Shown piece by piece: positions 10,170 through 64,000 of a stretch of 64,000 nt of DNA. A model generated the notes under the pieces. The model did no database searches, was not told where the DNA came from, and saw nothing but the letters and a program-made list of their open reading frames with translations. Position 1 is the stretch's first letter. Each line of letters begins with the position of its first letter. Location of the stretch: NCBI GenBank assembly GCA_000405685.1, contig ASPF01000013.1:11055-75054 (forward strand), given 5' to 3'. Position numbers and translations under genes: made by a program. The DNA is from Candidatus Geocrenenecus sp. JGI 0000106-J15. Its GTDB lineage: Archaea; Thermoproteota; Nitrososphaeria_A; Caldarchaeales; Wolframiiraptoraceae.

Positions 10170-11438
10170 ATGCATGCTACTATAGAATCAACCTTGTTAA
10201 CACAGGCTGATCAAAAATTCGTAGAATCACTATTCAAGAGATATTATCTAGAGAAAGCAGGCACTGTCTATGTCCCTGAGAAGATAAGTGAAAGAGAATT
10301 CGGATACTTCCCATTTGAAGAAAAAACTATGATTCGGCATCTCTACATAGAGTCATCAGAGAAGCTAGGAGAATTTCTTATAAAGAATAACCCTCTCCAC
10401 GTATATCATTCAGCAGCATTCTATAAGTATCCTGGTGCACCGATGGAGGAGAAAGAATGGATAGGAGCAGAACTAGCATTTGATATAGATGCAGACCATC
10501 TTAAAACACCATGTAGGAAGAAACATGACTTCAAAGTATGTTCAAAATGTTTCATAACTTACCCAGCTCAAGTAGATAGATGTAGTAAGTGTGGAGGAGT
10601 ATTAACAGATGTAGAATGGGTTTGTGAATTATGCTTAGAAGCAGCAAAACAGGAAACAAGGAAGCTACTAGACTTTCTAGAGAGAGACCTAGGCTTTAAG
10701 AAGATTAGGATAGTCTTCTCAGGTAATAGAGGCTACCATATAGTTGTCATGGATGAAGAAGTCCTAGAGCTTGGACAGCAAGAAAGGAAAGAGATAGTAG
10801 ACTACATTACTGGAACAGGTATTTCATTAAGAATAATGGGGTTAATTGAAGACCCTAAAAAAGATAGAGCAACCCAGATAAGTGGACCAGACATCTCTGA
10901 CCCAGGTTGGAGAGGTAGAATAGCTCGAGCCTCAGTTCAACTAGCTTTAGTAACTAATGCTTCTGAATTATCTGAATTATTATCGATAGACCATAGACAG
11001 GTTGAAAAGTATACTGATGTTTTAAGACAACACTCAGAAGAGTGGAGTGAACGCTGTGCATGGGATACGCTTCCAAGAAACATGGTGAAAATATTAGGGG
11101 AGGCAGCAGTAAAATATGCTTCTGCAAAAATCGATGTCGTAGTTACATCGGATATTCATAGATTGATTAGGCTTGCAAACACACTTAACGGTAAGTCAGG
11201 ACTAATAGCTAAAATAATTCAGCTAAATGAACTTGAGGATTTCGACCCATTCTTCCAAGCTACTGCATTACCGTATGATAGGACGGTTGATATACATGTT
11301 CTAAAGTCTCCAGGATTCAAGATGCTTGGAGAAGAGTTTGGACCCTACGAGAATACCAGTACTCGACTACCAGTTTCGGTGGCCGTACTCCTTATATTAA
11401 AGAACTTAGCTAGTATATCAAAACCCTCCGCCAATTAA
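10170..11438 (+). CDS. priS: DNA primase small (catalytic) subunit PriS
   Basis: Catalytic FDIDADH, Zn-knuckle CSKC..CSKCGG, SGNRGYHIVV, and DVVVTSDIHRLIRLANTLNGKSG. Confidence 0.9.
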   Translation: MHATIESTLLTQADQKFVESLFKRYYLEKAGTVYVPEKISEREFGYFPFEEKTMIRHLYIESSEKLGEFLIKNNPLHVYHSAAFYKYPGAPMEEKEWIGAELAFDIDADHLKTPCRKKHDFKVCSKCFITYPAQVDRCSKCGGVLTDVEWVCELCLEAAKQETRKLLDFLERDLGFKKIRIVFSGNRGYHIVVMDEEVLELGQQERKEIVDYITGTGISLRIMGLIEDPKKDRATQISGPDISDPGWRGRIARASVQLALVTNASELSELLSIDHRQVEKYTDVLRQHSEEWSERCAWDTLPRNMVKILGEAAVKYASAKIDVVVTSDIHRLIRLANTLNGKSGLIAKIIQLNELEDFDPFFQATALPYDRTVDIHVLKSPGFKMLGEEFGPYENTSTRLPVSVAVLLILKNLASISKPSAN

Positions 11439-11504: not shown

Positions 11505-11999
11505 TTGAGGATGTCAGGCGAAGTATCAATATATGAGCTTGTTTATGAGCTTTGGAGGATAGAGAACTCGACAGATGAGTTAGGGAAGCTTCCAGAAGGA
11601 TTTGAAGAAAAGTTAAGAGAATATTTCTCAAGATTAAAAAGTTATCTTAGAATCTCAGATAAGATGATGTTATCTACTAGTCTAAGGGAGGCTGAGGTAG
11701 ATGCAGTATCTAAACTTGTGCAATCATTATTTGAGATTAGGTTGGCGAAGATTATTAGAGCGGTCGAGTCTGGTTCATATCCTGAAACTATGTCAGGGTT
11801 TGAGAAGAATATATACATGTCTCTTCATAGAATCTTAACAGAACATAGAAAATATGTTGAATCAATAATCATGGCGACATCATATAGTGGATGGAATATT
11901 ATTGAATCGAATTATGATGTAGTCTGCTTTCAGCAGGATTTCCCTCAGATTGTTGGAGAAGACTTGAAGACTTATGGTCCATTCAAGCGATTGGCTTAA
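11505..11999 (+). CDS. GINS subunit (Gins51/Gins15 family)
   Basis: N-terminal helical A-domain pattern (YELVYELWRIENSTDELGKLPEGFEEKLREYF...RLAKII) and a C-terminal B-domain start (FPQIVGEDLKTYGPF). It is adjacent to priS, as in many archaea. The C-terminus may be short. Confidence 0.55.
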   Translation: MRMSGEVSIYELVYELWRIENSTDELGKLPEGFEEKLREYFSRLKSYLRISDKMMLSTSLREAEVDAVSKLVQSLFEIRLAKIIRAVESGSYPETMSGFEKNIYMSLHRILTEHRKYVESIIMATSYSGWNIIESNYDVVCFQQDFPQIVGEDLKTYGPFKRLA

Positions 12000-13782
12000 A
12001 GCTCTCATAGTAATGCTTAGACCATTTAAAGATGCAAGATTAAACAGTAGTGAAGATATCTTAGAAGCCTTATCTAGGCTTTCAGGAATAATTATTGAAG
12101 ATAAAGCTGGAACATTTATAGGTGCTAGAATGGGTAGACCAGAAAAAGCTGCTCAGAGAGAGATGAGTCCTCCTGTAAATCTACTATTTCCAATAGGATC
12201 AAATGGAGGCCCCTCAAGGGACTTCATAAATGCATTAAATAATAATGAGAAGATTACCGTTGAACTTGTTAAGAGACGATGTTCAAGCTGTAACAAAAAG
12301 ACCTGGACTCATAAATGCCCTGAGTGTAGAATACCAACAGAAATAATCGGAGAATGTGAGTCATGCGGTTTCGAGAAAAGATATGATGAAGAAACAGTAT
12401 GTGAGAAATGTGGAGGAAACATTACATATTATGAAAAATATGTAATAAACATAGCTGAGAAGTTATATGAAGTATCTAGAGAGATCAACGATCCTCTACC
12501 TGGAAAGATTAAAGGGGTTAAAGGGTTAAATAGCTTAACAAAGACTCCTGAAGACTTGGCTAAGGGGATTTTAAGAGCTAAACATGAACTCTATGTATAC
12601 AAGGATGGAACTATAAGATTTGATGTTACAAATGCCCCTCTGACCCATTTTAAACCAGGTCAGATAGGAACATCGGTCGATAAGCTGAGAAAACTAGGCT
12701 ATACACATGATATATTCGGGGAGCCGCTAACCTCCCCAGAGCAGATTCTAGAATTAAGAATTCAAGACGTAATTATACCTCGTAAAGCAGCAGAGCATCT
12801 ATTAAGAGTATCTAGATTTATCGATGACGAGCTTAAGAAGCTTGCAGGGATGGAGCCATACTATAATTGGGAGAAGCCTGAAGATATCATAGGAGAGCTA
12901 ATAGTAGTTTTGTCTCCACATACATATGCTGGATCAGTTGCAAGGGTAGTAGGTATAATTGATGGCCTTATATGTTTCGCTCATCCAGTGCTTCATGCTG
13001 CAAAAAGAAGAGATTGTGATGGAGATGAAGACAGCATTATGCTTCTACTTGATCCTTTAATCAATTTCTCAAGACTATATCTACCAAATAGAGTGGGTGG
13101 AAGAATGGATTCCCCCCTCCTTATAACTTCAATAGTATATCCAGAAGAAGTGGATGAACAAGCCCATAACCTAGATGTAGTTGAAGCATATCCTCTAGAA
13201 TTTTATAGAAAAGCTAGGAAAAATGAACATGTATCGAATATAGTGAGGATTATTCCAACTATTAAGAACTATTTAGAGAAACCTGAAGCTTTTGCTGGAT
13301 GTAGGTTCACTCATCCTCAAAGCCTACTGGTAACTAGTGTAAAAGAGTCTGCATATAAGAAACACTCATCAATGCTAGGCAAAATTATAGGACAGATAGA
13401 AATTGCTGAAAGATTAGCTGGAGTAGATGTTAGTTTAATGGTGGAGAAGATCATGGAGACTCATCTACTTCCAGATATAGTTGGAAATGCTAGAGCATTC
13501 TTTACACAAGAGTTTAGATGTAAGCGATGTGGATCAAAGTATCGTAGACTCCCAATAACTAGCAGATGCTATAATTGTGGAGATGAATTGAAGCAGACTG
13601 TCTATAGAGGAGCTGTAGAAAAATACGTTGAACTTACACAAGAACTTCTTGGAAAATATGTTAAGAACCAGTATTTAAGAGAACAAGCCCTCATAGCTCT
13701 TGAAGGCATAAAGAAGATACTATCAAAAGAAGAGCTGTCTGAAGCGTCTGGAAGACAGGTCTCCTTGGAAAAGTTTATGTGA
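11974..13782 (+). CDS. DNA polymerase D large subunit (DP2), C-terminal half only
   Basis: GARMGRPEKA, a Zn-finger cluster CSSCNKK..CPEC..CESCG..CEKCGG, the catalytic acidic loop AAKRRDCDGDEDS, and the C-terminal Zn finger CKRCGSKY..CYNCG. It is 602 aa, versus roughly 1100-1300 aa for full-length DP2. Confidence 0.85.
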   Translation: MVHSSDWLKALIVMLRPFKDARLNSSEDILEALSRLSGIIIEDKAGTFIGARMGRPEKAAQREMSPPVNLLFPIGSNGGPSRDFINALNNNEKITVELVKRRCSSCNKKTWTHKCPECRIPTEIIGECESCGFEKRYDEETVCEKCGGNITYYEKYVINIAEKLYEVSREINDPLPGKIKGVKGLNSLTKTPEDLAKGILRAKHELYVYKDGTIRFDVTNAPLTHFKPGQIGTSVDKLRKLGYTHDIFGEPLTSPEQILELRIQDVIIPRKAAEHLLRVSRFIDDELKKLAGMEPYYNWEKPEDIIGELIVVLSPHTYAGSVARVVGIIDGLICFAHPVLHAAKRRDCDGDEDSIMLLLDPLINFSRLYLPNRVGGRMDSPLLITSIVYPEEVDEQAHNLDVVEAYPLEFYRKARKNEHVSNIVRIIPTIKNYLEKPEAFAGCRFTHPQSLLVTSVKESAYKKHSSMLGKIIGQIEIAERLAGVDVSLMVEKIMETHLLPDIVGNARAFFTQEFRCKRCGSKYRRLPITSRCYNCGDELKQTVYRGAVEKYVELTQELLGKYVKNQYLREQALIALEGIKKILSKEELSEASGRQVSLEKFM

Positions 13783-13834: not shown

Positions 13835-14104
13835 ATGGTCGAGGTCAATCCGAGGGCATACCTGGCGAGGATTCGGAATGTCAAGAAGGGAGTGAATATA
13901 AGATCTAGAATACTTGAATTAATAAGCTCGAAACCATTAACGATCAAGAAGATAGCTGAACGGGTTGGTAGAAGTCGCTCGTCAATAAGAAGACATTTAA
14001 AGAATATGGAGGCTGAAGGGATCGTTAGATCTCAAAGATATAAGGGTAGGACTATCTGGATGACTACTGGTATAGGTCAGAAAGCTATCGAGGAAGTATA
14101 CTAG
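13835..14104 (+). CDS. Winged-helix (ArsR/MarR-like) transcriptional regulator
   Basis: RSRILELISSKPLTIKKIAERVGRSRSSIRRHLKNMEAEGIV is a typical wHTH. Confidence 0.6.
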   Translation: MVEVNPRAYLARIRNVKKGVNIRSRILELISSKPLTIKKIAERVGRSRSSIRRHLKNMEAEGIVRSQRYKGRTIWMTTGIGQKAIEEVY

Positions 14105-19233: not shown

Positions 19234-19338
19234 GCTGAGAAGAATTAAATGCTACTGATTATTAAATTTCTCTCTTTATAATCTTACCCAGCGATCAAAT
19301 GGAATTAGAGGAGTTGTATCTCATGTTTCGATATTTTC

Positions 19339-19890
19339 TCACTCTAGGTAGGTTTCTTTAAGTCTTCTTAGCATTCTAACCTGTTTCTCATGTTCTTCTC
19401 CTATTTCTTTTTCTTCAAATTCTTTAAATCTATCCATAATCTCTACTTGAACCTCTATAGGAATATATTGGTCTGCTAGATTAAATAGTATATTGTCTTC
19501 TTTCCATATATGTTGTTCAAGAAGAGAGATATAGTTTCTAGCATTTTCAATGAATTCATCTAAAGCTATTCGAGAACCTTGTTTATATTTCTCAACAGCT
19601 TTATTCATAGCTTTAACATAACTCCTCCCTTCTTCATGCTCTATTAACATAACAGCTATAGGACCACCATCCCTAGGTATGCCAGCATCCTCCAAGGCTG
19701 GAAATAGAATGTTTTCTTCTTTTCCATGATGACATTTATCTGCAAATGTCTTGATGAAATTTAATATCTTCTCCAAATCTTCTACTGAGACATTTTGTTC
19801 TAAAGTAGCCTTACTGATAATCTTATCCAAGATGGATAGCATCTCTTTAATCTCTACATGCTCATTCTTCAAAACATCCGTAGGCTTCAT
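19339..19890 (-). CDS. Hemerythrin-like (HHE cation-binding) domain protein
   Basis: LKNEHVEI, HHGKEENILFP, MLIEHEEGR and EQHIWKEDN repeats of His/Glu ligands. Confidence 0.7.
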   Translation of the reverse strand: MKPTDVLKNEHVEIKEMLSILDKIISKATLEQNVSVEDLEKILNFIKTFADKCHHGKEENILFPALEDAGIPRDGGPIAVMLIEHEEGRSYVKAMNKAVEKYKQGSRIALDEFIENARNYISLLEQHIWKEDNILFNLADQYIPIEVQVEIMDRFKEFEEKEIGEEHEKQVRMLRRLKETYLE

Positions 19891-56088: not shown

Positions 56089-56690
56089 TTATAGATATAA
56101 TCTTCTCTCAAGATCTACCAATCTTCTAAACGCTTTGAGTTTCTCTTCTCTATCTATATTTGTTGAATCAAGTATAGATTTTAGAAAACTTATTGATTCA
56201 TCCATCTTTTTTCTCGATACTGGGTATGGTACACCATCTTTTCCACCATGAGCGAAAGTAAATTTTAGGGGGTCCCTCCAATCTATCTGGACTCCATATA
56301 CTAGTGTAGAGATTAGAGCTAAAGCTCTAAGGGTTGACGCTCCTACTCCTTCTATCTGGATTAGTTCTTCATATTTGCCTGGTTTTATATCGTATGCCTT
56401 CTTAACTGCTTTCCAGTTTATCTTTCTAGGCATATTAAGATGTGGAGGTGTTTGTACTTCAAAATCAATATCCATCCATCTTGTTAATGTTTCCTGTCTA
56501 TTTAGGGAGAGATTTATAAGTCTAACTAGTTTAGAAGGATTCTCTGAGATTAAGTCTACTGAGGTCTTTCTAACATCTCTACTCTTACTAGATGTTAAGT
56601 TAAGGACTGCTTCTTCTTTCTTATCTCCAGCTATTCCACTATGGGGTTCTTCTACGAAGCTTACTATATTTTCACTTATCCAATGATAAG
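56089..56690 (-). pseudogene. DUF763 family gene lacking its N-terminal ~150-200 codons
   Basis: The C-terminal part (..EEPHSGIAGD..; IQIEGVGASTLRALALIS; FAHGGKDGVPYPV) is in one open frame. That frame runs into AT-rich low-complexity DNA near 56700 with no start codon. The first ATG is at 56475. Confidence 0.5.
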
Positions 56691-56700
56691 TGAGAATTGA

Positions 56701-56760
56701 GAATATTATTAAGAATATTATTATTTTACTAATTTATTTACTAATAATAATATTTCCATA
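56701..56760. repeat. AT-rich low-complexity tract with short direct repeats, at the DUF763 truncation point
   Basis: The tract reads gAATATTATTaagAATATTATTattttACTAATttatttACTAATaataatatt. Confidence 0.4.
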
Positions 56761-56844
56761 GCTTAATCTTCCATATAATACTTCATTGACAGCCCTACCT
56801 AGCAGATATGCTACTCTTTCTACTGTCGCCTCACCACCCTCTCT

Positions 56845-57048
56845 TTATAGAACTTCTCTTAAAGCCCTCTCCTTATAATCTCCCATCCTAAACCATCTTG
56901 AACCTCTATGCAATCCATTATTCATGGAGTCTTCTCTTAAGGCTAAGTATGTCATGTGCTTATCACAGTAATATCCTAAAACCCTGCCATCCTTAACACG
57001 TATCCATCTACACTCACCAGAACATCCATCGAAACAACACCTATCCAT
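56845..57048 (-). CDS. Small Cys/His-rich (putative Zn-binding) protein, 67 aa
   Basis: MDRCCFDGCSGECRW...YYCDKH. The family is not recognised, and the gene is part of a compact minus-strand small-ORF set. Confidence 0.35.
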   Translation of the reverse strand: MDRCCFDGCSGECRWIRVKDGRVLGYYCDKHMTYLALREDSMNNGLHRGSRWFRMGDYKERALREVL

Positions 57049-57300
57049 AAACCATCACTAAGCAGGATATAGGAGATAGTGTTAAAAAGTCTAGCCTAGA
57101 AAACTTAGAAACCCTAACAAGCCAAACCATAAACATATACCAACACATAATAAGATAAACATCTATATATATTCTGAGGAGTTCTATATCAGATACATTT
57201 CCAGAACCCCTACATCTAAACAAACAACATACATACCCCTATAAAGAGGATAGAAACAATAAACTTGATAAGCCTATAAATTATATGTTATACCTCATAT

Positions 57301-57600
57301 TCAATCTATACTCTGCTTATTTCCTCCATATTCATTTATAGCTTCTAAGATAACATCTTCATCTACACCCTGCATATACCAATTCATCTTCTCAAACCAC
57401 TCAGTACTTGAAAAACTACCAAAAACATATACATATAAACCATTATACTCTATCCCCTTCTCTTTAACACTTCCTATAATATGAGCATATAGATCATCAT
57501 CGAAAGCCTCACCAACAACAGCTACATCATACCCTATAGACCTAGAATAATCAAACATCCCATAGAGGAATACAATATTATCTCTCAACCCCTCATACAT
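57301..57600 (-). CDS. Hypothetical 99-aa acidic protein
   Basis: ORF only. Its ATG overlaps the stop of the upstream 36-aa ORF (ATGTATGA). Confidence 0.35.
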   Translation of the reverse strand: MYEGLRDNIVFLYGMFDYSRSIGYDVAVVGEAFDDDLYAHIIGSVKEKGIEYNGLYVYVFGSFSSTEWFEKMNWYMQGVDEDVILEAINEYGGNKQSID

Positions 57601-57703
57601 CTATAATATATACATGGTCTATATCTGCTAGAACCTTCAACCTCCCATCCTTAAAGTATAGGTAGATTGACCCTAGAGGTAGGATAAACTTCCTAGGTAG
57701 CAT
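57593..57703 (-). CDS. Possible 36-aa ORF, translationally coupled to 57301-57600
   Basis: MLPRKFILPLGSIYLYFKDGRLKVLADIDHVYIIDV. Its TGA at 57593-57595 overlaps the next ATG. Confidence 0.2.
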   Translation of the reverse strand: MLPRKFILPLGSIYLYFKDGRLKVLADIDHVYIIDV

Positions 57704-58230
57704 ACTTTCTAGCAATTAAAGTACGTGTGTTCTTAAAAAAAGTATAGGTGTCCTAAATCTCATGTAGAAGTCTGGATTATGTTGACACCGTAATATCTAT
57801 CATGGCATCAATAAGCTCTAGGGAAATTTGTAGTCTTTATAGTAAGACTCCGGAGACAGGCAATGCGTAGTTAGCAAGCTCAACCAGCTAGTGGTCCCCA
57901 CAGCTGTTAGACTTAACATGTTAAGATTGCAGGTGAAGCAGAATCTTCAGGTTACCTACGGGAAATTATAAAGCGTTATTCAAGATTTAAAATGATGAAG
58001 AACTTCTCTATCAAGTAGTGAAGAGCAGCTGAGAAAATAGTAGACGAATTCATTGAATTGGATAAAAAGTATAGACTCAGACGATGTATAGTTACTAGTG
58101 ATGTTGAGGGTGGAAGAGGATAGCTGATATCCCTGAATTACTAGTCCTAATAAAATCTTAGTAGTTTTCTAGGAGCTCTATATTTCCGTTGGTGATGATG
58201 TTGTTATCCATGATTGGATAGCAATTTAGG

Positions 58231-59835
58231 TTAGCTAATGCTGTAGGCTTCGGTGAAAGTGTTTGAGAATATTTTATTGGCTCTGTTTGAAATGTTTTTG
58301 ATCCATCCTTGCTTGAGTTCTACACCGTATGGTCCTAGCACGTACCCATTCTTCTCCATAATCTTATATGTTGCTATGAGGCTTTCTTCAGCGGGTTTTC
58401 CTCCATTAAGTATCTTGAATCCTCCACCTTCATCTACCTTTATCTTAAAGTATCCTTCTAGTAGATATTTTACTTTCATGTCTCCGCAAACCTTAAGATC
58501 ATCAATGACTTTTCTTGAGAGCCAGCTAGCAAACTCGTATTCTGCTGTATTATAGTTCCATTGGTATCCTAGATGGTTTTCTTGGAGTATTATTGAAGAG
58601 TAATGCTGGTAAACCATTGTTAATGAGATTGGAAGCAGTATAATGGCTAGAGACAGTACACCCAAATACTTTCTTTTGAAGAAGTTCATTACTCTAACTA
58701 GTCCAATGGATGCTAGTATAGAGGCTGGTGGAAGTATATGGTTTGCAAGCCTGTAGAAGAGTGTTAGAGACATGCTTGGCTGAGCACCAAACATAGAATA
58801 TGCTTCAAGAGATAACGTTGCTGAGAGCCAACCGAATACAAAATATATGTTGGCTATTCCAGCTTGCTGCCTAGAAGTGTGGAATCCAATGATAATGAAG
58901 AAGCCGAGCATAAGTAGTATCAAGATCTGTATTAGTAGATTCACTGGTATCTTTGGAGAGCCTGGCATCACTGGGATAAGCTGATTCGCAAAGAGACAAA
59001 TATATGAAGTTGCTAAGACCATGAACAAGCTTATAGGCGGTCTATTAGCCTTAGACCCAGCCAATAGATAATATGAGATCAGAAGAGAGAATGCTTGGAA
59101 TGAAATAAGAGATAGCATGTCCGATAAGGTTAAAGAATACCGAACACCTCTTAAAGCATATAGAGAATAGTAGGTCGCCCCTAGGATTAATAGTGTAACC
59201 AGAGCTACTATCAATCTTGTGAGGTTATCGTCATCGACCCGTCTTAGCAGAAGTCTCAAGACAAGTATATATGAGAAGATTATTAGTAGGAGGAAGTATT
59301 GGAGGTGATGACTCATAACGATAGCCATCCCGATAATGGATAAGAGAATGCTTCTCGTCACGGTGTTGCCGGCTATGAAGACTAGATATAGGAGAGTGAA
59401 GAAGACTAGCAGGGTAAATGTTTCTTTTGTTACCCCAGATGTAAATATAGCTTGGTAGCCTCCTAAAGCTAACAGTAGAGATGAGATGATGGCCGTGGCT
59501 CTATTGCCTATATTCTTCTTAACTATGATGTAGAGTATGACTGGTGTAAGCGAGGCGATAGCTGGGAAGAGTATACGTTCTACATCTAAGACTCTAGCAT
59601 TAAGTACTATTGATGAGATGGCTCCGAAGACTTGACTTGCAGGCCAGTAATTATTGTAACCGTCAAAGACATTTTCTTCTAAGTTAATCGGTGTATATCT
59701 TAGTAGATTCTCAGTGTTCAGTATAAGAGGCCATGAATCTGTAGAGAGTGGCAGCCCGGTCAGGAACGTTGGGTATAAACGTATAGAGAATGATAGTATG
59801 ATAATTATCGTGAATAGTATGGAAAACCTATCCAT
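58231..59835 (-). CDS. Polytopic membrane protein with a C-terminal soluble domain (GT-C / PMT_2-like glycosyltransferase, tentative)
   Basis: About 12-13 TM segments, a first extracytoplasmic loop containing an STDSWP acidic motif, and a ~110-aa soluble C-terminus. No WWDYG motif is present, so it is not a clear AglB. Confidence 0.4.
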   Translation of the reverse strand: MDRFSILFTIIIILSFSIRLYPTFLTGLPLSTDSWPLILNTENLLRYTPINLEENVFDGYNNYWPASQVFGAISSIVLNARVLDVERILFPAIASLTPVILYIIVKKNIGNRATAIISSLLLALGGYQAIFTSGVTKETFTLLVFFTLLYLVFIAGNTVTRSILLSIIGMAIVMSHHLQYFLLLIIFSYILVLRLLLRRVDDDNLTRLIVALVTLLILGATYYSLYALRGVRYSLTLSDMLSLISFQAFSLLISYYLLAGSKANRPPISLFMVLATSYICLFANQLIPVMPGSPKIPVNLLIQILILLMLGFFIIIGFHTSRQQAGIANIYFVFGWLSATLSLEAYSMFGAQPSMSLTLFYRLANHILPPASILASIGLVRVMNFFKRKYLGVLSLAIILLPISLTMVYQHYSSIILQENHLGYQWNYNTAEYEFASWLSRKVIDDLKVCGDMKVKYLLEGYFKIKVDEGGGFKILNGGKPAEESLIATYKIMEKNGYVLGPYGVELKQGWIKNISNRANKIFSNTFTEAYSIS

Positions 59836-59845
59836 ACCTGTAGCT

Positions 59846-61030
59846 TCACGTTTCTACTGAGTCTATAGCAGTTTTCGTAGCTATCAAGCTGGGTATACAT
59901 GTTAATCCAGCTGAGGCCAGTAGTATCAAGACATCGATTATAGGCTTAATAGTATATGTACCGATGATGAGTAGATTGCTCTCAGAGTAGAACTTAGACA
60001 TTAGATATCCAATCGTTGAGCCAGCTAAGCCGGCTAGAAGAGAGGAGACCAATACTACTATTAGAAACGTAGAGTTTATCCTCTTGGACCCACCTATGCT
60101 TTTAATAATAGAGATCTCTCTAGCATGATCTTGTATGAAAACCGTTGATGCAAGGATTATCGTAGATATTGAGCCGGCGAAGACAAGTATCGCTATACTC
60201 CAGAAGGATGCCTCATTTAATTTAAACTCTCTTGCCATGAATTCTTGCATAGATTCACTTGCACCCCTCACAACATATCTTGATGGTAAAGCTTCTTGGC
60301 TTACTGAAAATAGTAGACTTATGATCCTGCTTGCTTCTGAGGCTGCCTTCTCTCCAGTCCCGCCCCAACCAACAGCTTCTGATAGCTTCTCTCGAGATAG
60401 AAGCTTCTCATCCATCTTAACTCTCATCATCGACACTGAATTGGGGGGTAAGCCTCTCAACCACTGTGCAGCTTGTACCAGTATGAGTATCTCGTCATCA
60501 AGCGATGTCTTAGATTCATATACTCCAACTATCTCCACCTCGATGAAGTTTCTTGTAAGGATTGAGCGGAGAAGCACTCTATCACCAGTCTTTAAGCCAA
60601 ATCTCTTAGAAGCTTCTAAACCTACGACCGCCTCAAAGTATCTCTCACCGCTTATGAATACACCGTCCAGCATTTTAAGGTCTAAAAAGTATTCTAGAGA
60701 ACCTGGATCTACTCCTCTCACAACAATCGGTGCATCATTTAATAACACCGAAACTGAGACCGTTTCTGGACTTATAGCTTCTATGCCTTCCATAGACATA
60801 AGCTCACTGTATATTGCTAGAGAGATGACGCTGGTTTGAGGGGACATGGCATCAGCCCCATAGATTATCATAACGTCTCCAACATCTGTTGTCAGCAGGT
60901 TTGACATCGTAGAGAATACTCCTAACGAGATGCATGCTGTAAAGGCTACGATGGCTGATGCAACTGATACTGTCAAGAGAATCAGGGTAAGCTTCTTCCA
61001 TTTTATAATCTTGAGTAGAGTCGTTGACAT
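59846..61030 (-). CDS. ABC transporter permease, FtsX/MacB-like
   Basis: N-terminal TM helix, a large extracytoplasmic domain, and a C-terminal 3-TM FtsX-type bundle. Confidence 0.7.
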   Translation of the reverse strand: MSTTLLKIIKWKKLTLILLTVSVASAIVAFTACISLGVFSTMSNLLTTDVGDVMIIYGADAMSPQTSVISLAIYSELMSMEGIEAISPETVSVSVLLNDAPIVVRGVDPGSLEYFLDLKMLDGVFISGERYFEAVVGLEASKRFGLKTGDRVLLRSILTRNFIEVEIVGVYESKTSLDDEILILVQAAQWLRGLPPNSVSMMRVKMDEKLLSREKLSEAVGWGGTGEKAASEASRIISLLFSVSQEALPSRYVVRGASESMQEFMAREFKLNEASFWSIAILVFAGSISTIILASTVFIQDHAREISIIKSIGGSKRINSTFLIVVLVSSLLAGLAGSTIGYLMSKFYSESNLLIIGTYTIKPIIDVLILLASAGLTCIPSLIATKTAIDSVET

Positions 61031-61033
61031 ATC

Positions 61034-62131
61034 TTAGAGCTTCATCCTAGTTAGTTTAATTATCGGAGGTATAGAGCCTGTTATAGACATCATGCCTGCA
61101 GCCGCTGAGATCCAGGAGAGATCATTTAGTGTTAGGGTTGGTGGCTGGTAAGCTTCTACTGATAGTATCAGTGAGAGTGCTCTGAAGATAACTTGAGATG
61201 AGACTACCCCAATAGATATACCGATAAGAATACTCATCAGAGATACTATCGAAGCTTTGTAAAATAGGAATAACGCTGCTTTCCTCTTCGAGAATCCGAT
61301 TCTTCTGAGGGCCAAGACCCTATCTAATGAGTCTATACACATCTTTAAGCTAGTAAAGTATGAGCTGATGAAGACTGTTACACTTATAGCTAAAGCCCAG
61401 CTCCTAATAGTATTAAACGTTGATTCTACAATATTTTCAATTGCTTGGGAGGCAGGCTGTAGAGGCATAACTCTCAAGTTTAAGGATGCTAATTCCTCAT
61501 CACCTAGTTTTCCAATAAATTCCAGTAAAGTAACCTTTCCATCAACATCAGGAGATAGCCTCCAAGCATCTTCAAGCTGTACTAGAACTTCTTCATCATA
61601 TGGGCAGCTGCATCTCAATATTCCAGCCACTTTGAGAGTATGCCTCCCATCTCCCAGCTCAATTTCAATATAATCATTAAGAGAGAGATTAAGTCTACTG
61701 GCTAACAATATCCCTACATTGCCTTCAGACATATTCTTAGGCATGGAGCCAGTGAGACTGACATGTCTAAACTTGTATAAGTGGTTTAAGGATGCTCCTC
61801 TCAAAACTGTCTCGACATCTTCAGCATTACTGCCTACCTTACAGTATCTTATCAACTGTGGAGAGAAGTCTACGTTCCTATGCTTCAGAATATCTTCAAG
61901 AAGTTTGTATTCAATTATACTATCACTTAGAGAGTTTGCAGAAGAATTTATAACTAGGTAGTGGTGGTAATCTTGTGCAGGCATTATTCTCGTTAAATGC
62001 TCGATATATGCATTCCCGATAGCTAGAGGGATAACTACTACTGCAATTAGTGAACCTATCGTCAAGATGTATGATAATAGACGCTTAGGCTCACCTATCA
62101 GGTTCTTGAACGCTAAATGTAGAATCATCAT
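61034..62131 (-). CDS. ABC transporter permease, FtsX/MacB-like (second copy)
   Basis: Same architecture as its neighbour, separated from it by 3 nt. Confidence 0.7.
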   Translation of the reverse strand: MMILHLAFKNLIGEPKRLLSYILTIGSLIAVVVIPLAIGNAYIEHLTRIMPAQDYHHYLVINSSANSLSDSIIEYKLLEDILKHRNVDFSPQLIRYCKVGSNAEDVETVLRGASLNHLYKFRHVSLTGSMPKNMSEGNVGILLASRLNLSLNDYIEIELGDGRHTLKVAGILRCSCPYDEEVLVQLEDAWRLSPDVDGKVTLLEFIGKLGDEELASLNLRVMPLQPASQAIENIVESTFNTIRSWALAISVTVFISSYFTSLKMCIDSLDRVLALRRIGFSKRKAALFLFYKASIVSLMSILIGISIGVVSSQVIFRALSLILSVEAYQPPTLTLNDLSWISAAAGMMSITGSIPPIIKLTRMKL

Positions 62132-62174
62132 CTAAAACTTAATATCTCCAGATGGGCGGATATAGAGATGGTAT

Positions 62175-62849
62175 ATGAGCAACGCTATAGAACTCATAAA
62201 TGTATGGAAGAATTACGCTAATAACTTACCAGTCCTTAAAGGTGTCAGCTTATCAGTTCCAGTCGGAGCGTTCATCTCTATAAGAGGAAGATCTGGCGCT
62301 GGTAAAACCACTCTCTTAAGGTTAATCGGGCTGCTTGACCGGCCGTCAAATGGAGAGATAATCCTCCTCGGAACAGAAACTTCTAAAATTAGTGATGGGG
62401 AAGCTTCAAAGATAAGGCTTAAACACATAGGCTTCATCTTTCAATCATTCAACCTGATCCCGTCTCTAACAGTTTTAGAAAATATTGAACTACCTATGGC
62501 CCTTCTTGGAGTAAAGAAGGAAGCTAGACGTAAGAGGTCTATCGAGCTGTTGGAGAGATTCCACATGGAGATGCTTGCTAATAGATTCCCTACGGAATTA
62601 AGCGGGGGAGAACAGCAGAGGATAGCGATTCTAAGAGCTACAGTGAATAATCCTGATATAATCCTAGCAGATGAGCCTACATCTAATCTCGACGAAGAGA
62701 ATAGTCGGCTAGTATATGAATTACTAAGCGAGATTAATCGTGAAAGCCTAGCCGCAATTATTGTGACAGAAGTAAGTCTGGAGGAGAAGCTCCCGACCAG
62801 CGAAGATTACTTACTAAAGGATGGAATTCTATATAAGCTGAATATATAA
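62175..62849 (+). CDS. ABC transporter ATP-binding protein (MacB/LolD type)
   Basis: Walker A GRSGAGKTTLL, Q-loop, signature LSGGEQQRIAILRA, Walker B ILADEPTSNLD. Confidence 0.9.
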   Translation: MSNAIELINVWKNYANNLPVLKGVSLSVPVGAFISIRGRSGAGKTTLLRLIGLLDRPSNGEIILLGTETSKISDGEASKIRLKHIGFIFQSFNLIPSLTVLENIELPMALLGVKKEARRKRSIELLERFHMEMLANRFPTELSGGEQQRIAILRATVNNPDIILADEPTSNLDEENSRLVYELLSEINRESLAAIIVTEVSLEEKLPTSEDYLLKDGILYKLNI

Positions 62850-62879
62850 GCAGTATTTCCAACGTCTAGATTCTCCCCT

Positions 62880-63986
62880 CTAGACAGGCACGGTTTGTTC
62901 ATGAATCCTTCTGGAGGATTCCCCATAAAATATCACTTTTGAGCCCGCCTTCTGCAAAGCATCTAACAACTTGTAATGTGATGAGTACATTATATATGCC
63001 TCCTCCAAGTTATCCAAGTCAGCCCAAGGCTTTCCAGATGTCAGCACCACCAGCTCACCATTATTAATTTTAACCATCCTAGACAATTCTAGAACAAATT
63101 CCGAGTCCAAGATTACGTTTCCAACATAGTATATCATAGCTTCCCTAATCGTCAGCTTTGAGATAACTTCATCAATAGACTCTACCTTAAGCTGGAGAGC
63201 TTCTAGGAGGCCGGAGGCTTCCACTTCTCTAATTATTGAGAGGACTTGGCTAGCTGTCTTAGGCTCAAGAATCTCGTATACATCCCAGCTCTCAGTTATG
63301 TAGTTTTTCATCGAGTAGGAGACGGCTATCTTGAGAGCGATATCTGGGTCGATGGAACGGTATTCTGAGATCAGAGTCAAACCATTCTTCAATATTAAGG
63401 TTATAGGTAGACCGAGCCTAACAGCTGAGATTATCGATGAGAGGAATAACGCATTAACTTCATCACTCGTGATAGGGCCAATGGCTCTCGTATCGAAGAC
63501 CAATCCAACAGCTTTATAGGCTTCTTGAGAGAAGTCTTTTACAATGAGTTTCTCAAGCCTAGCAGAAGCTTTCCAATCGATTGAAGTAAATGGATCGCCT
63601 ATCTGATGCTCTCTACTCCAGAGATACTCTGTCCCCCGACCCTTCTTAGCGCCAGCCGCCTCCCCACCGTAGCCTGTTTGACCAATCATCTTTAATGCCT
63701 CTATGATGAATGGTAGAGTTCTTGGATAAGCAAGGACTTCTAGGCCGAGTGGTATCTTAAAATCTTCATGGAGTACCCTCAGAGGATCTGTAAAGGTAGT
63801 AGTCAAGAAATCGAGTTTATAGATCTTGCCTATTCTTGGCGAGAACGTTAACTTAACTTCGTTAACACCTTTCTTCAAGGTATCTGTTGATGCTTTCACC
63901 CAGTCTGGAAGGTTAACCAGCTTCAACTCGACAGGCGTATATATGATCAAGTCTACATTCTTCTCTTCGCCAGCCATCATCCTCAA
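62880..63986 (-). CDS. DUF58 domain protein (vWA-like; usual partner of a MoxR ATPase)
   Basis: YLWSREHQIGDPFTSIDWKASARLEKLIVKDF is the DUF58 signature region. Confidence 0.7.
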   Translation of the reverse strand: MRMMAGEEKNVDLIIYTPVELKLVNLPDWVKASTDTLKKGVNEVKLTFSPRIGKIYKLDFLTTTFTDPLRVLHEDFKIPLGLEVLAYPRTLPFIIEALKMIGQTGYGGEAAGAKKGRGTEYLWSREHQIGDPFTSIDWKASARLEKLIVKDFSQEAYKAVGLVFDTRAIGPITSDEVNALFLSSIISAVRLGLPITLILKNGLTLISEYRSIDPDIALKIAVSYSMKNYITESWDVYEILEPKTASQVLSIIREVEASGLLEALQLKVESIDEVISKLTIREAMIYYVGNVILDSEFVLELSRMVKINNGELVVLTSGKPWADLDNLEEAYIMYSSHYKLLDALQKAGSKVIFYGESSRRIHEQTVPV

Positions 63987-64000
63987 CCTTACATTCCTAG

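What the first reader, a model, noticed from the sequence alone, without database searches (positions are those of the whole stretch)
11505..13782. The PolD large subunit is encoded only as its C-terminal half: a possible naturally split DP2
ORF 11974-13782 (602 aa) carries GARMGRPEKA, the central Zn-finger cluster, the catalytic acidic loop RRDCDGDED (counterpart of the RNAP NADFDGD loop in the second double-psi beta-barrel) and the C-terminal Zn finger. Full-length DP2 is roughly twice this size.

In the DP2 frame, a TGA at 11965-11967 sits two codons before the ATG. The upstream genes are a 164-aa GINS and PriS, so the N-terminal half (clamp and first DPBB) cannot be encoded here. The ORF overlaps the gins 3' end by 26 nt, and the GINS B-domain looks short after ..TYGPFKRLA.

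Three readings are possible:
- A two-polypeptide DP2 with one DPBB on each chain, mirroring RNAP beta/beta'.
- A relic on the path to PolD loss.
- A rearrangement or misassembly joint.
Basis: partly seen in the sequence, partly recalled or inferred. Interest (0 to 1): 0.7.

Follow-up and report, generated by a model that had tools for sequence, protein, structure and literature searches.

The report
Deletion joint, not a split polymerase
The half-length DNA polymerase D gene is what remains after 6.4 kb went missing from this assembly between two copies of a six-base repeat. Near-identical genomes from other samples carry the normal full-length gene, so this is not a naturally split enzyme.

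Summary
ORF 11974-13782 (602 aa) is the C-terminal 52% of a PolD large subunit (DP2), and it abuts a gins51 gene that lacks the end of its C-terminal domain.

The split reading does not hold:
- Contigs 99.85-99.96% identical to the window, from several other assemblies, carry an intact locus. It reads PriS, full Gins51 (193 aa), Clp1-like kinase, a 213-aa ORF, Elf1, GGGP synthase, a KaiC-like ATPase, an Fe-S assembly protein, and a 1141-aa DP2.
- The window equals that locus minus exactly 6,409 bp lying between two TTCAAG hexamers, with one copy kept at 11982-11987.
- None of 9 same-population contigs that cross a breakpoint has the joint. All related species examined have full-length DP2 (1128-1165 aa).
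- The ATG at 11974 is a gins codon pair (TAT-GGT) read in another frame.
- The break falls inside the DP2 central domain, at about residue 605/606 of the Pyrococcus abyssi protein, so it cuts through the first double-psi beta-barrel (DPBB-1).
- The missing DNA includes genes expected to be essential.

Verdict: a microhomology deletion joint private to this assembly. It is either a chimeric-template or assembly artefact (about 0.55) or a very recent dead-end deletion allele (about 0.35). Low interest.

The parts
10170..11438 (+). PriS (primase small subunit). Intact left-flank gene, collinear with relatives.
   Evidence: Pfam DNA_primase_S, E = 6e-23. Collinear with L002 8-1844 and with same-population contigs L044-L048 at 99.9% identity.
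11505..11999 (+). Truncated gins51. The sequence is native up to 11987. The last three codons (RLA) and the stop are DP2 sequence read out of frame. 34 C-terminal residues of the 193-aa protein are missing.
   Evidence: Gins51_C is matched over 3-24 of 48 here, against 3-44 of 48 in the intact 193-aa orthologue of the same population, L044 5933-6514. Junction alignment.
11982..11987 (.). TTCAAG, the single retained copy of a 6-bp direct repeat. It flanks the missing 6,409-bp segment in the intact locus and marks the deletion joint.
   Evidence: All left-side alignments of same-population contigs end at 11987 and all right-side alignments start at 11982. Reconstruction from L044 and L049 gives a deletion of exactly 6,409 bp between two TTCAAG copies. 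P(at least 6 bp of microhomology at a random joint) is about 0.0013.
11974..13782 (+). DP2 remnant ORF of 602 aa. Residues 4-602 equal S543-M1141 of the 1141-aa DP2. The first three residues (M-V-H) come from gins sequence read in another frame.
   Evidence: Pfam central 256-369 of 372 plus catalytic 7-299 of 299. Identical to the C-terminal part of the full-length DP2 on L049 except I158V and the three junction residues. The ATG lies in the gins codons TAT-GGT, conserved in the gins of all relatives shown.
13835..14104 (+). ArsR-type HTH gene. Intact right-flank gene that follows full-length DP2 in relatives. It was used as the anchor to retrieve same-population contigs.
   Evidence: Pfam HTH_5. 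The identical protein occurs on 13 contigs. L049 and L052 show it directly downstream of a 1141-aa DP2.

Best explanation
The 602-aa ORF is the leftover 3' half of an ordinary full-length DP2 gene.

In the organism's normal genome the locus reads: PriS, Gins51 (193 aa), Clp1-like kinase, 213-aa ORF, Elf1 zinc ribbon, GGGP synthase (PcrB family), KaiC-like ATPase, Fe-S assembly protein, DP2 (1141 aa), HTH.

In this assembly, 6,409 bp between a TTCAAG inside gins51 and a TTCAAG inside DP2 (codons 542-544) are missing, and one repeat copy remains. That is the signature of strand slippage or template switching at a microhomology.

The apparent start codon is accidental. The upstream sequence is unchanged gins coding sequence. 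The fragment lacks the N-terminal domain and five of the six DPBB-1 strands, so it cannot form the two-barrel active site.

My preferred origin is that the joint was made in, or selected from, chimeric or deleted template molecules during amplification, library preparation or assembly. On that view it does not represent the working genome of the cell.

- Shown: the deletion, its exact size, the repeat, and the intact state in near-identical genomes.
- Inferred: that the joint is an artefact rather than a rare in vivo allele. The combined probability that it is a non-functional deletion joint of either origin is about 0.9.
For: - **Intact locus in the same population.**
  - Contigs from other assemblies are 99.85-99.96% identical to the window without gaps.
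  - On the left they run past window 11987 into an intact gins51 and seven further genes (L044, L045).
  - On the right they run upstream of window 11982 into DP2 sequence (L049, L050, L051, L052, L053, L054, L056). L049 and L052 carry the complete 1141-aa DP2.
  - None of these 9 informative contigs has the joint.
- **Exact deletion.** Merging L044 and L049 shows the window equals the intact locus minus exactly 6,409 bp between two TTCAAG copies.
- **No second sighting of the joint.**
  - A scan of JGI metagenome contigs with the right-flank 35-mer found 5 contigs and none carries the joint. L039 and L041 hold both gins and DP2 sequence several kb apart. L040, from the same population at 99.92%, reads DP2 sequence upstream of the joint.
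  - The truncated GINS (164 or 162 aa) and the 602-aa product are not on record in the gene-position collection.
- **Relatives are intact.** L002, L003, L004, L005 and L061 have 6.3-8.2 kb between the same two points. DP2 is 1128-1165 aa in the five relatives read.
- **The missing DNA is native.** Its GC is 0.376 against 0.374 and 0.366 in the flanks, and it occurs nowhere else in the window. It holds a PcrB-family GGGP synthase gene, expected to be essential for archaeal ether lipids (established knowledge).
- **The Gins51 C-terminal domain matters.** It is the docking site for GAN and DP1 (PMC9023282).
- **The break is not at a domain boundary.** It maps to P. abyssi DP2 residue 605/606 in the central domain (308-667), upstream of the last DPBB-1 strand.
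- **A second private junction.** A gene-truncating junction at 56688 exists in the same window, which is what an assembly prone to chimeras would show.
Against: - No reads are available, so the joint cannot be shown to lack read support.
- A 6-bp overlap is too short to cause a false join in a de Bruijn graph assembler. The joint must therefore have existed in at least some sequenced molecules, and a real in vivo deletion would look identical.
- The window carries private SNPs on both sides of the joint. It comes from a slightly different strain or sample than the comparison contigs, so a strain-specific real deletion is not formally excluded.
- I could not identify the source assembly, or whether amplification was used.
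Confidence: 0.55

Rival explanations
1. A genuine in vivo deletion allele. Replication slippage or microhomology-mediated end joining between the two TTCAAG copies removed 6,409 bp in some cells or genome copies of this strain. The allele is very recent and non-functional. It is either a dead end or carried alongside intact copies, and the assembler followed it.
For: - The deletion is precise and has 6-bp microhomology (chance about 0.0013).
- The joint must have existed in real molecules, because 6 bp cannot drive a k-mer misjoin.
- Private SNPs on both flanks show that one strain contributed both sides.
- Assemblies of this population repeatedly break inside the DP2 5' half. That could make a minority deletion path the only unbranched route.
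Against: - The deletion removes GGGP synthase, half of DP2 and part of Gins51C together. A cell with only this allele should not be viable.
- A lethal allele should not reach assembly-level frequency.
- The joint was not seen in any of 9 informative same-population contigs, in 5 JGI contigs, or among recorded gene products.
Confidence: 0.35
2. A functional, naturally split DP2. The N-terminal half, together with the other deleted genes, has moved elsewhere in this genome, and the two chains assemble into an active PolD.
For: - The 602-aa reading frame is open, with an ATG close to the joint.
- The rest of this genome could not be searched.
Against: - The split is absent from genomes 99.9% identical and from all related species examined.
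- The geometry is a simple same-orientation deletion that also truncates gins51.
- The break cuts DPBB-1 inside the central domain rather than falling between domains.
- The ATG and everything upstream of it are unaltered gins coding sequence, so there are no evolved expression signals.
- No DP2 N-terminal half at about 100% identity was found in the species-representative genome collection.
Confidence: 0.03
3. A viable lineage caught in the act of losing PolD. The deletion is fixed in this strain, which now replicates with family B polymerases only, as Crenarchaeota do.
For: - Crenarchaeota lack PolD (PMC4104785), so loss has happened in archaeal evolution.
- The window's strain is distinguishable from the others by private SNPs.
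Against: - The same event removes GGGP synthase and part of Gins51C.
- The remnant shows no decay. Its only difference from the full-length gene is residue 158, Ile in the window and Val in L049, and the sister species L002 also has Ile.
- All relatives keep full-length DP2.
Confidence: 0.04

Closest known systems
Full-length PolD large subunit DP2 of Ca. Geocrenenecus and other Caldarchaeales (1128-1165 aa), and the solved Pyrococcus abyssi and Thermococcus kodakarensis DP2 (PDB 5IJL, 6HMS, 6T8H, 6KNB)
   Same: Residues 4-602 are colinear with the C-terminal 599 residues of the 1141-aa orthologue. They include the GARMGRPEKA segment, the zinc fingers, the catalytic DPBB-2 with its DxD loop, and the DP1-binding C-terminal domain. 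Identity is 88-89% to sister species, and the sequence equals the same-population gene apart from residue 158 and the three junction-derived N-terminal residues.
   Different: Missing are the N-terminal domain and most of the central domain, corresponding to P. abyssi residues 1 to about 605. That includes five of the six DPBB-1 strands and its conserved basic residues.
Microhomology-mediated deletions and template-switch chimeras (replication slippage or MMEJ in vivo; chimeras from multiple-displacement amplification or PCR in vitro)
   Same: Both flanks are collinear with the reference. An internal segment is lost precisely. A short direct repeat sits at both ends with one copy retained. The joined points are only 6.4 kb apart and in the same orientation.
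   Different: The process that made the joint cannot be identified from the sequence alone, and no read or library information is available.
Genuinely split archaeal replication genes, such as the split PolB of Methanobacteriales and the intein-associated split PolB of Nanoarchaeum equitans (PMC4104785)
   Same: A replicative polymerase gene appears as a partial ORF.
   Different: In those cases both parts are encoded and the split is found in a whole lineage or is linked to intein halves (PMC4104785). Here only one part is present. The split is private to one assembly. No intein-family domain was found in the ORF. A neighbouring gene is truncated by the same event.

Membership tests
PolD large subunit DP2 (complete, functional gene) | N-terminal domain (Pfam PolC_DP2_N, PF03833) | tested here: not met
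   No match in the 602-aa ORF and none anywhere in the window. Present at residues 11-280 of the same-population 1141-aa DP2.
PolD large subunit DP2 (complete, functional gene) | Complete central domain carrying DPBB-1 | tested here: not met
   Only model positions 256-369 of 372 are matched. The break corresponds to P. abyssi residue 605/606, within the central domain (308-667). DPBB-1 strands beta7-9 and beta13 lie upstream of it.
PolD large subunit DP2 (complete, functional gene) | Catalytic domain with DPBB-2 and the invariant DxD loop | tested here: met
   PolC_DP2_cat 7-299 of 299, E = 1.8e-119. RRDCDGDED aligns to the catalytic loop of the solved structures.
PolD large subunit DP2 (complete, functional gene) | C-terminal zinc-finger domain that binds DP1 | tested here: met
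   The alignment to 6KNB chain B extends to residue 1198 and includes CKRCGSKYRRLPITSRCYNCG.
Naturally split gene encoding a two-chain enzyme | Both halves encoded in the genome | tested here: inconclusive
   The N-half is absent from the 64-kb window. No DP2 N-half at about 100% identity was found in the genome collection. The source genome itself could not be located.
Naturally split gene encoding a two-chain enzyme | Split conserved in close relatives | tested here: not met
   Same-population contigs (99.9% identity) and the related species read have one uninterrupted DP2 of 1128-1165 aa.
Naturally split gene encoding a two-chain enzyme | Break at a domain boundary, with its own start and expression signals | tested here: not met
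   The break is inside the central domain. The ATG and all upstream sequence are identical to gins coding sequence in the intact locus.
Microhomology deletion or chimeric joint | Both flanks collinear with an intact reference, and an internal segment precisely absent | tested here: met
   Gap-free alignments end at 11987 and start at 11982. 6,409 bp are absent.
Microhomology deletion or chimeric joint | Short direct repeat at both ends of the lost segment, one copy retained | tested here: met
   TTCAAG at both ends of the segment in the intact locus, and a single copy at window 11982-11987. Chance expectation about 0.0013.
Microhomology deletion or chimeric joint | Read-level support that separates an artefact from a real allele | not testable with these tools
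   No reads or assembly graph are available.

The most novel reading that the evidence does not exclude
The deletion is real and fixed in a viable strain of this Geocrenenecus-like archaeon. In one step the strain lost the polymerase half of PolD, part of the Gins51 docking domain and its GGGP synthase gene. It would survive through family B polymerases and substitute functions encoded elsewhere. That would be a live example of PolD loss in the TACK lineage.
Probability: 0.03. Interest if true: 0.7.

Novelty: not a real feature. Interest (0 to 1): 0.08.

Why it matters
A genuine two-chain DP2 would bear on how two-barrel polymerases evolved, and a genuine loss would show how Crenarchaeota came to lack PolD. 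The evidence says neither is happening here.

The practical value is a caution. A tidy open reading frame with all the catalytic motifs can be produced by a single microhomology deletion joint in one assembly. Comparison with near-identical contigs from other samples exposes this quickly. Annotation of this genome should flag gins51 and DP2 as disrupted at an assembly-specific joint, and should not report a split or missing PolD.

Tried and rejected
- **Selection test.** A dN/dS or relaxed-selection test on the remnant was dropped. The remnant differs from the same-population full-length gene at one residue only, and that residue is the ancestral state, so there is no power.
- **Search for the source genome.**
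  - The DP2 C-half and N-half scans of the species-representative genomes gave no hit near 100%.
  - An exact 34-mer taken from same-population sequence just beyond the window's left edge gave nothing.
  - Whether the missing 6.4 kb sits on another contig of the same assembly therefore remains unknown.
- **Search for a second sighting of the joint.**
  - Exact-product look-ups for the 602-aa ORF and for both start variants of the truncated GINS found nothing.
  - The one metagenome scan returned no contig with the joint.
- **Other short DP2 proteins.** In the homologue list, P0098 (734 aa) and P0075 (645 aa) are adjacent N and C pieces of one gene. They look like frameshifts rather than precedents, and L071 also has a broken NAD synthase. 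Most other short hits are cut by contig ends.
- **Inversion or mobile-element excision.** Rejected. The two flanks are joined in the same orientation, the lost DNA has native GC and conserved housekeeping genes, and it is present in all relatives.
- **Promoter scan.** Not run, because the tool models bacterial sigma-70 sites only.
Full report
**1. The observation**

- ORF 11974-13782 (+) encodes 602 aa.
- Pfam places the complete DP2 catalytic domain in it (PF24846, positions 7-299 of 299, E = 1.8e-119). It places only the tail of the central domain (PF24844, positions 256-369 of 372). The N-terminal domain PF03833 is absent.
- The ORF aligns to solved DP2 chains of Thermococcus kodakarensis and Pyrococcus abyssi from about residue 636-641 to about 1182-1198.
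- The upstream 164-aa ORF is a Gins51 whose C-terminal domain is matched only over model positions 3-24 of 48. PriS precedes it.
- A full-length orthologue used as a tblastn query matches the window only with its residues 540-1140, so no N-terminal half is hidden in any frame of the 64 kb.

**2. Who this is and what relatives look like**

- The closest genomes are uncultured Caldarchaeales (Aigarchaeota) of the genus Ca. Geocrenenecus, in the family Wolframiiraptoraceae. Protein identity to the ORF is 89% (L001), 88% (G. arthurdayi, L002) and 81% (G. huangii, L003) (genus context from PMC9246946).
- In the five relatives I read, DP2 is one ORF of 1128-1165 aa. In L001 the N-half and C-half matches abut on one contig.
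- DNA comparison shows the window is collinear with these genomes on both sides of about 11.98 kb. PriS-gins matches one block and DP2-C plus downstream genes matches another. In L002, L003, L004, L005 and L061 the two blocks are separated by 6.3-8.2 kb that the window lacks.

**3. The same population has the intact locus**

I used exact-protein look-ups with the window's neighbouring genes. These were the 473-aa DUF87 ATPase on the left and the 89-aa HTH on the right. They retrieved contigs from ENA, JGI and Logan assemblies that are 99.85-99.96% identical to the window, with no gaps.

- **Left side.** L044 (30.9 kb) and L045 run past window position 11987 into the following genes:
  - a 193-aa Gins51 with a complete C-terminal domain;
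  - a Clp1-type kinase (400 aa);
  - a 213-aa ORF;
  - an Elf1 zinc ribbon;
  - a PcrB-family GGGP synthase (257 aa);
  - a KaiC-like ATPase (248 aa);
  - an Fe-S assembly protein (123 aa);
  - the 5' part of DP2.
- **Right side.** L049 and L052 carry a complete 1141-aa DP2 with all three Pfam domains. L050, L051, L056, L053 and L054 start inside DP2 upstream of the joint and read DP2 sequence there.
- **JGI scan.** A scan of JGI metagenome contigs with the 35-mer just right of the joint gave five contigs.
  - None of the five carries the joint.
  - L039 and L041 hold both gins and DP2 sequence, separated by several kb.
  - L040 is the same population (99.92%) and reads ...AGAGTTAAATTAGACAAGATAATTCTTTCAAG..., which is DP2 codons and not gins, upstream of the joint.
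- **Tally.** None of nine informative same-population contigs has the gins::DP2 joint. SNP patterns show that these contigs represent several distinct consensus haplotypes. The window carries private alleles on both sides of the joint.

**4. Anatomy of the joint**

- Joining L044 (reverse complement) to L049 reconstructs the intact locus. The window equals it minus exactly 6,409 bp.
- The lost segment begins after a TTCAAG in gins51 (...TATGGTCCATTCAAG|AAAGGAGAT...). It ends with a TTCAAG in DP2 (...GATAATTCTTTCAAG|CGATTGG...). One copy remains at window 11982-11987.
- Six or more bases of microhomology at a random joint are expected about 0.13% of the time. The joint is therefore microhomology-mediated and not an arbitrary paste.
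- Consequences for the two genes:
  - gins51 keeps its native sequence through ...TYGPFK. It then reads three out-of-frame DP2 codons (RLA) and stops, losing 34 of 193 residues.
  - In the DP2 frame the first in-frame ATG lies 8 nt upstream of the repeat. It is the gins codon pair TAT-GGT read in another frame, and it is present in the gins of all relatives shown.
  - The ORF is therefore M-V-H followed by DP2 S543-M1141.
  - The only other difference from the full-length protein on L049 is residue 158, Ile in the window and Val in L049. Ile is also the state in the sister species L002.
- The missing DNA has the same GC as its flanks and occurs nowhere else in the window.

**5. Where the break falls in the protein**

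- L542/S543 aligns to residues 605/606 of the 1270-aa P. abyssi DP2.
- DPBB-1 is spread through the central domain (strands beta7-9, beta13 and beta18). Beta18 lies just before the 654-668 linker (PMC4996933).
- The break is therefore inside the central domain. It leaves only the last DPBB-1 strand with the fragment and puts the other strands, with the conserved basic residues, in the missing part.
- The picture of one barrel per chain is not what the cut would give.

**6. What was lost**

- Besides half of DP2, the deletion removes part of the Gins51 C-terminal domain. In Thermococcus that domain docks both GAN and the DP1 subunit of PolD (PMC9023282).
- It also removes the GGGP synthase gene, whose product makes the first ether bond of archaeal lipids (established knowledge).
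- A cell carrying only this allele is not expected to be viable.

**7. Explanation**

Shown: the window carries a private 6,409-bp microhomology deletion, and the normal state of this population and of all relatives is a single full-length DP2.

Inferred: the origin of the joint.

- Six bases cannot cause a false join in a k-mer assembler, so molecules with the joint must have been sequenced.
- They could be in vitro template-switch chimeras from amplification or library preparation. They could also be a rare in vivo deletion from slippage or end joining. In either case the assembler followed them, perhaps because the intact path is fragmented. Several assemblies break inside the DP2 5' half.
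- I favour the artefact (about 0.55) over a real dead-end allele (about 0.35), for three reasons:
  - the allele should be lethal;
  - it was never seen again;
  - the same window has a second private, gene-truncating junction at 56688.
- A functional split (0.03) or a viable PolD-less lineage (0.04) is unlikely.

**8. Comparison with known cases**

- The fragment is an ordinary member of the DP2 family by sequence, but it fails the tests for a complete DP2 (no N-terminal domain, incomplete central domain).
- It also fails the tests for a natural split: it is not conserved, it is not at a domain boundary, and it has no signals of its own.
- Known split archaeal polymerase genes, such as PolB in Methanobacteriales and Nanoarchaeum, keep both halves. 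They are found in a whole lineage or are linked to intein halves (PMC4104785).
- Other short DP2 entries in the protein database turned out to be adjacent pieces of one gene, probably frameshifts, or truncations at contig ends.

**9. Verdict**

The sequence observation is correct. Interest is low. The useful outcome is to flag both genes as disrupted at an assembly-specific joint, and to check the reads.

Noticed in passing
window 56089-64000 (junction at 56688): A second junction private to this window.

- Same-population contigs L080 (35 kb) and L082 match the window up to 56688 at 99.6-99.8% identity. They then continue with the rest of a 368-aa DUF763 gene, an H+-pyrophosphatase and further genes.
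- The window keeps only the 3' part of that gene, a 128-aa remnant ORF. It then continues with unrelated DNA: small ORFs, a 534-aa membrane protein, two large membrane-protein ORFs, an ABC-type ATPase and a 368-aa ORF.
- GC there rises to 0.38-0.435, against about 0.35-0.37 before it.
- The 534-aa and 224-aa proteins of this region, the two looked up, are not on record elsewhere. The 534-aa protein has only relatives at 40% identity or less, none of them in Geocrenenecus.

This is either a strain-specific island or a second chimeric joint.
   Followed up: partly
window 34221: A structural polymorphism next to the thiolase gene. Contigs L072 and L074 diverge from the window exactly here, and L072 continues into an IS1595-family transposase. 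L073 and L078 run through collinear with the window.
   Followed up: partly
L050, L051, L056 (start 328 nt upstream of the joint); L053 (= L040) and L054 (start 26 nt upstream): Contigs from different assemblies begin at the same two positions inside the DP2 5' half, and L044 and L045 end inside it. The start only 26 nt from the deletion joint may be a coincidence of shared read sets, or it may mark a branch in the assembly graph. No SNP at that position was seen among the other contigs.
   Followed up: partly
L002 5963-7401 (Ca. Geocrenenecus arthurdayi): This species has an extra 379-aa ORF with a P-loop-like motif, followed by an overlapping 110-aa ORF. They sit between the KaiC-like ATPase gene and the Fe-S assembly gene. 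The pair is absent from the window's population, where the interval is about 1.7 kb shorter. It may be a small accessory or defence insertion.
   Followed up: no
L070 4788-8205; L071 4767-7938: In two long contigs (559 kb and 108 kb) of other archaea, DP2 is called as two adjacent pieces (388 + 734 aa, and 429 + 645 aa overlapping). L071 also has a broken NAD synthase. These are most likely frameshift errors and not natural splits.
   Followed up: partly
window 19268-19349: A variable spot between species. L001 and L002 carry about 1.0 kb and 1.9 kb of extra DNA here relative to the window, and L003 does not. No tRNA gene lies at this position in the window.
   Followed up: no
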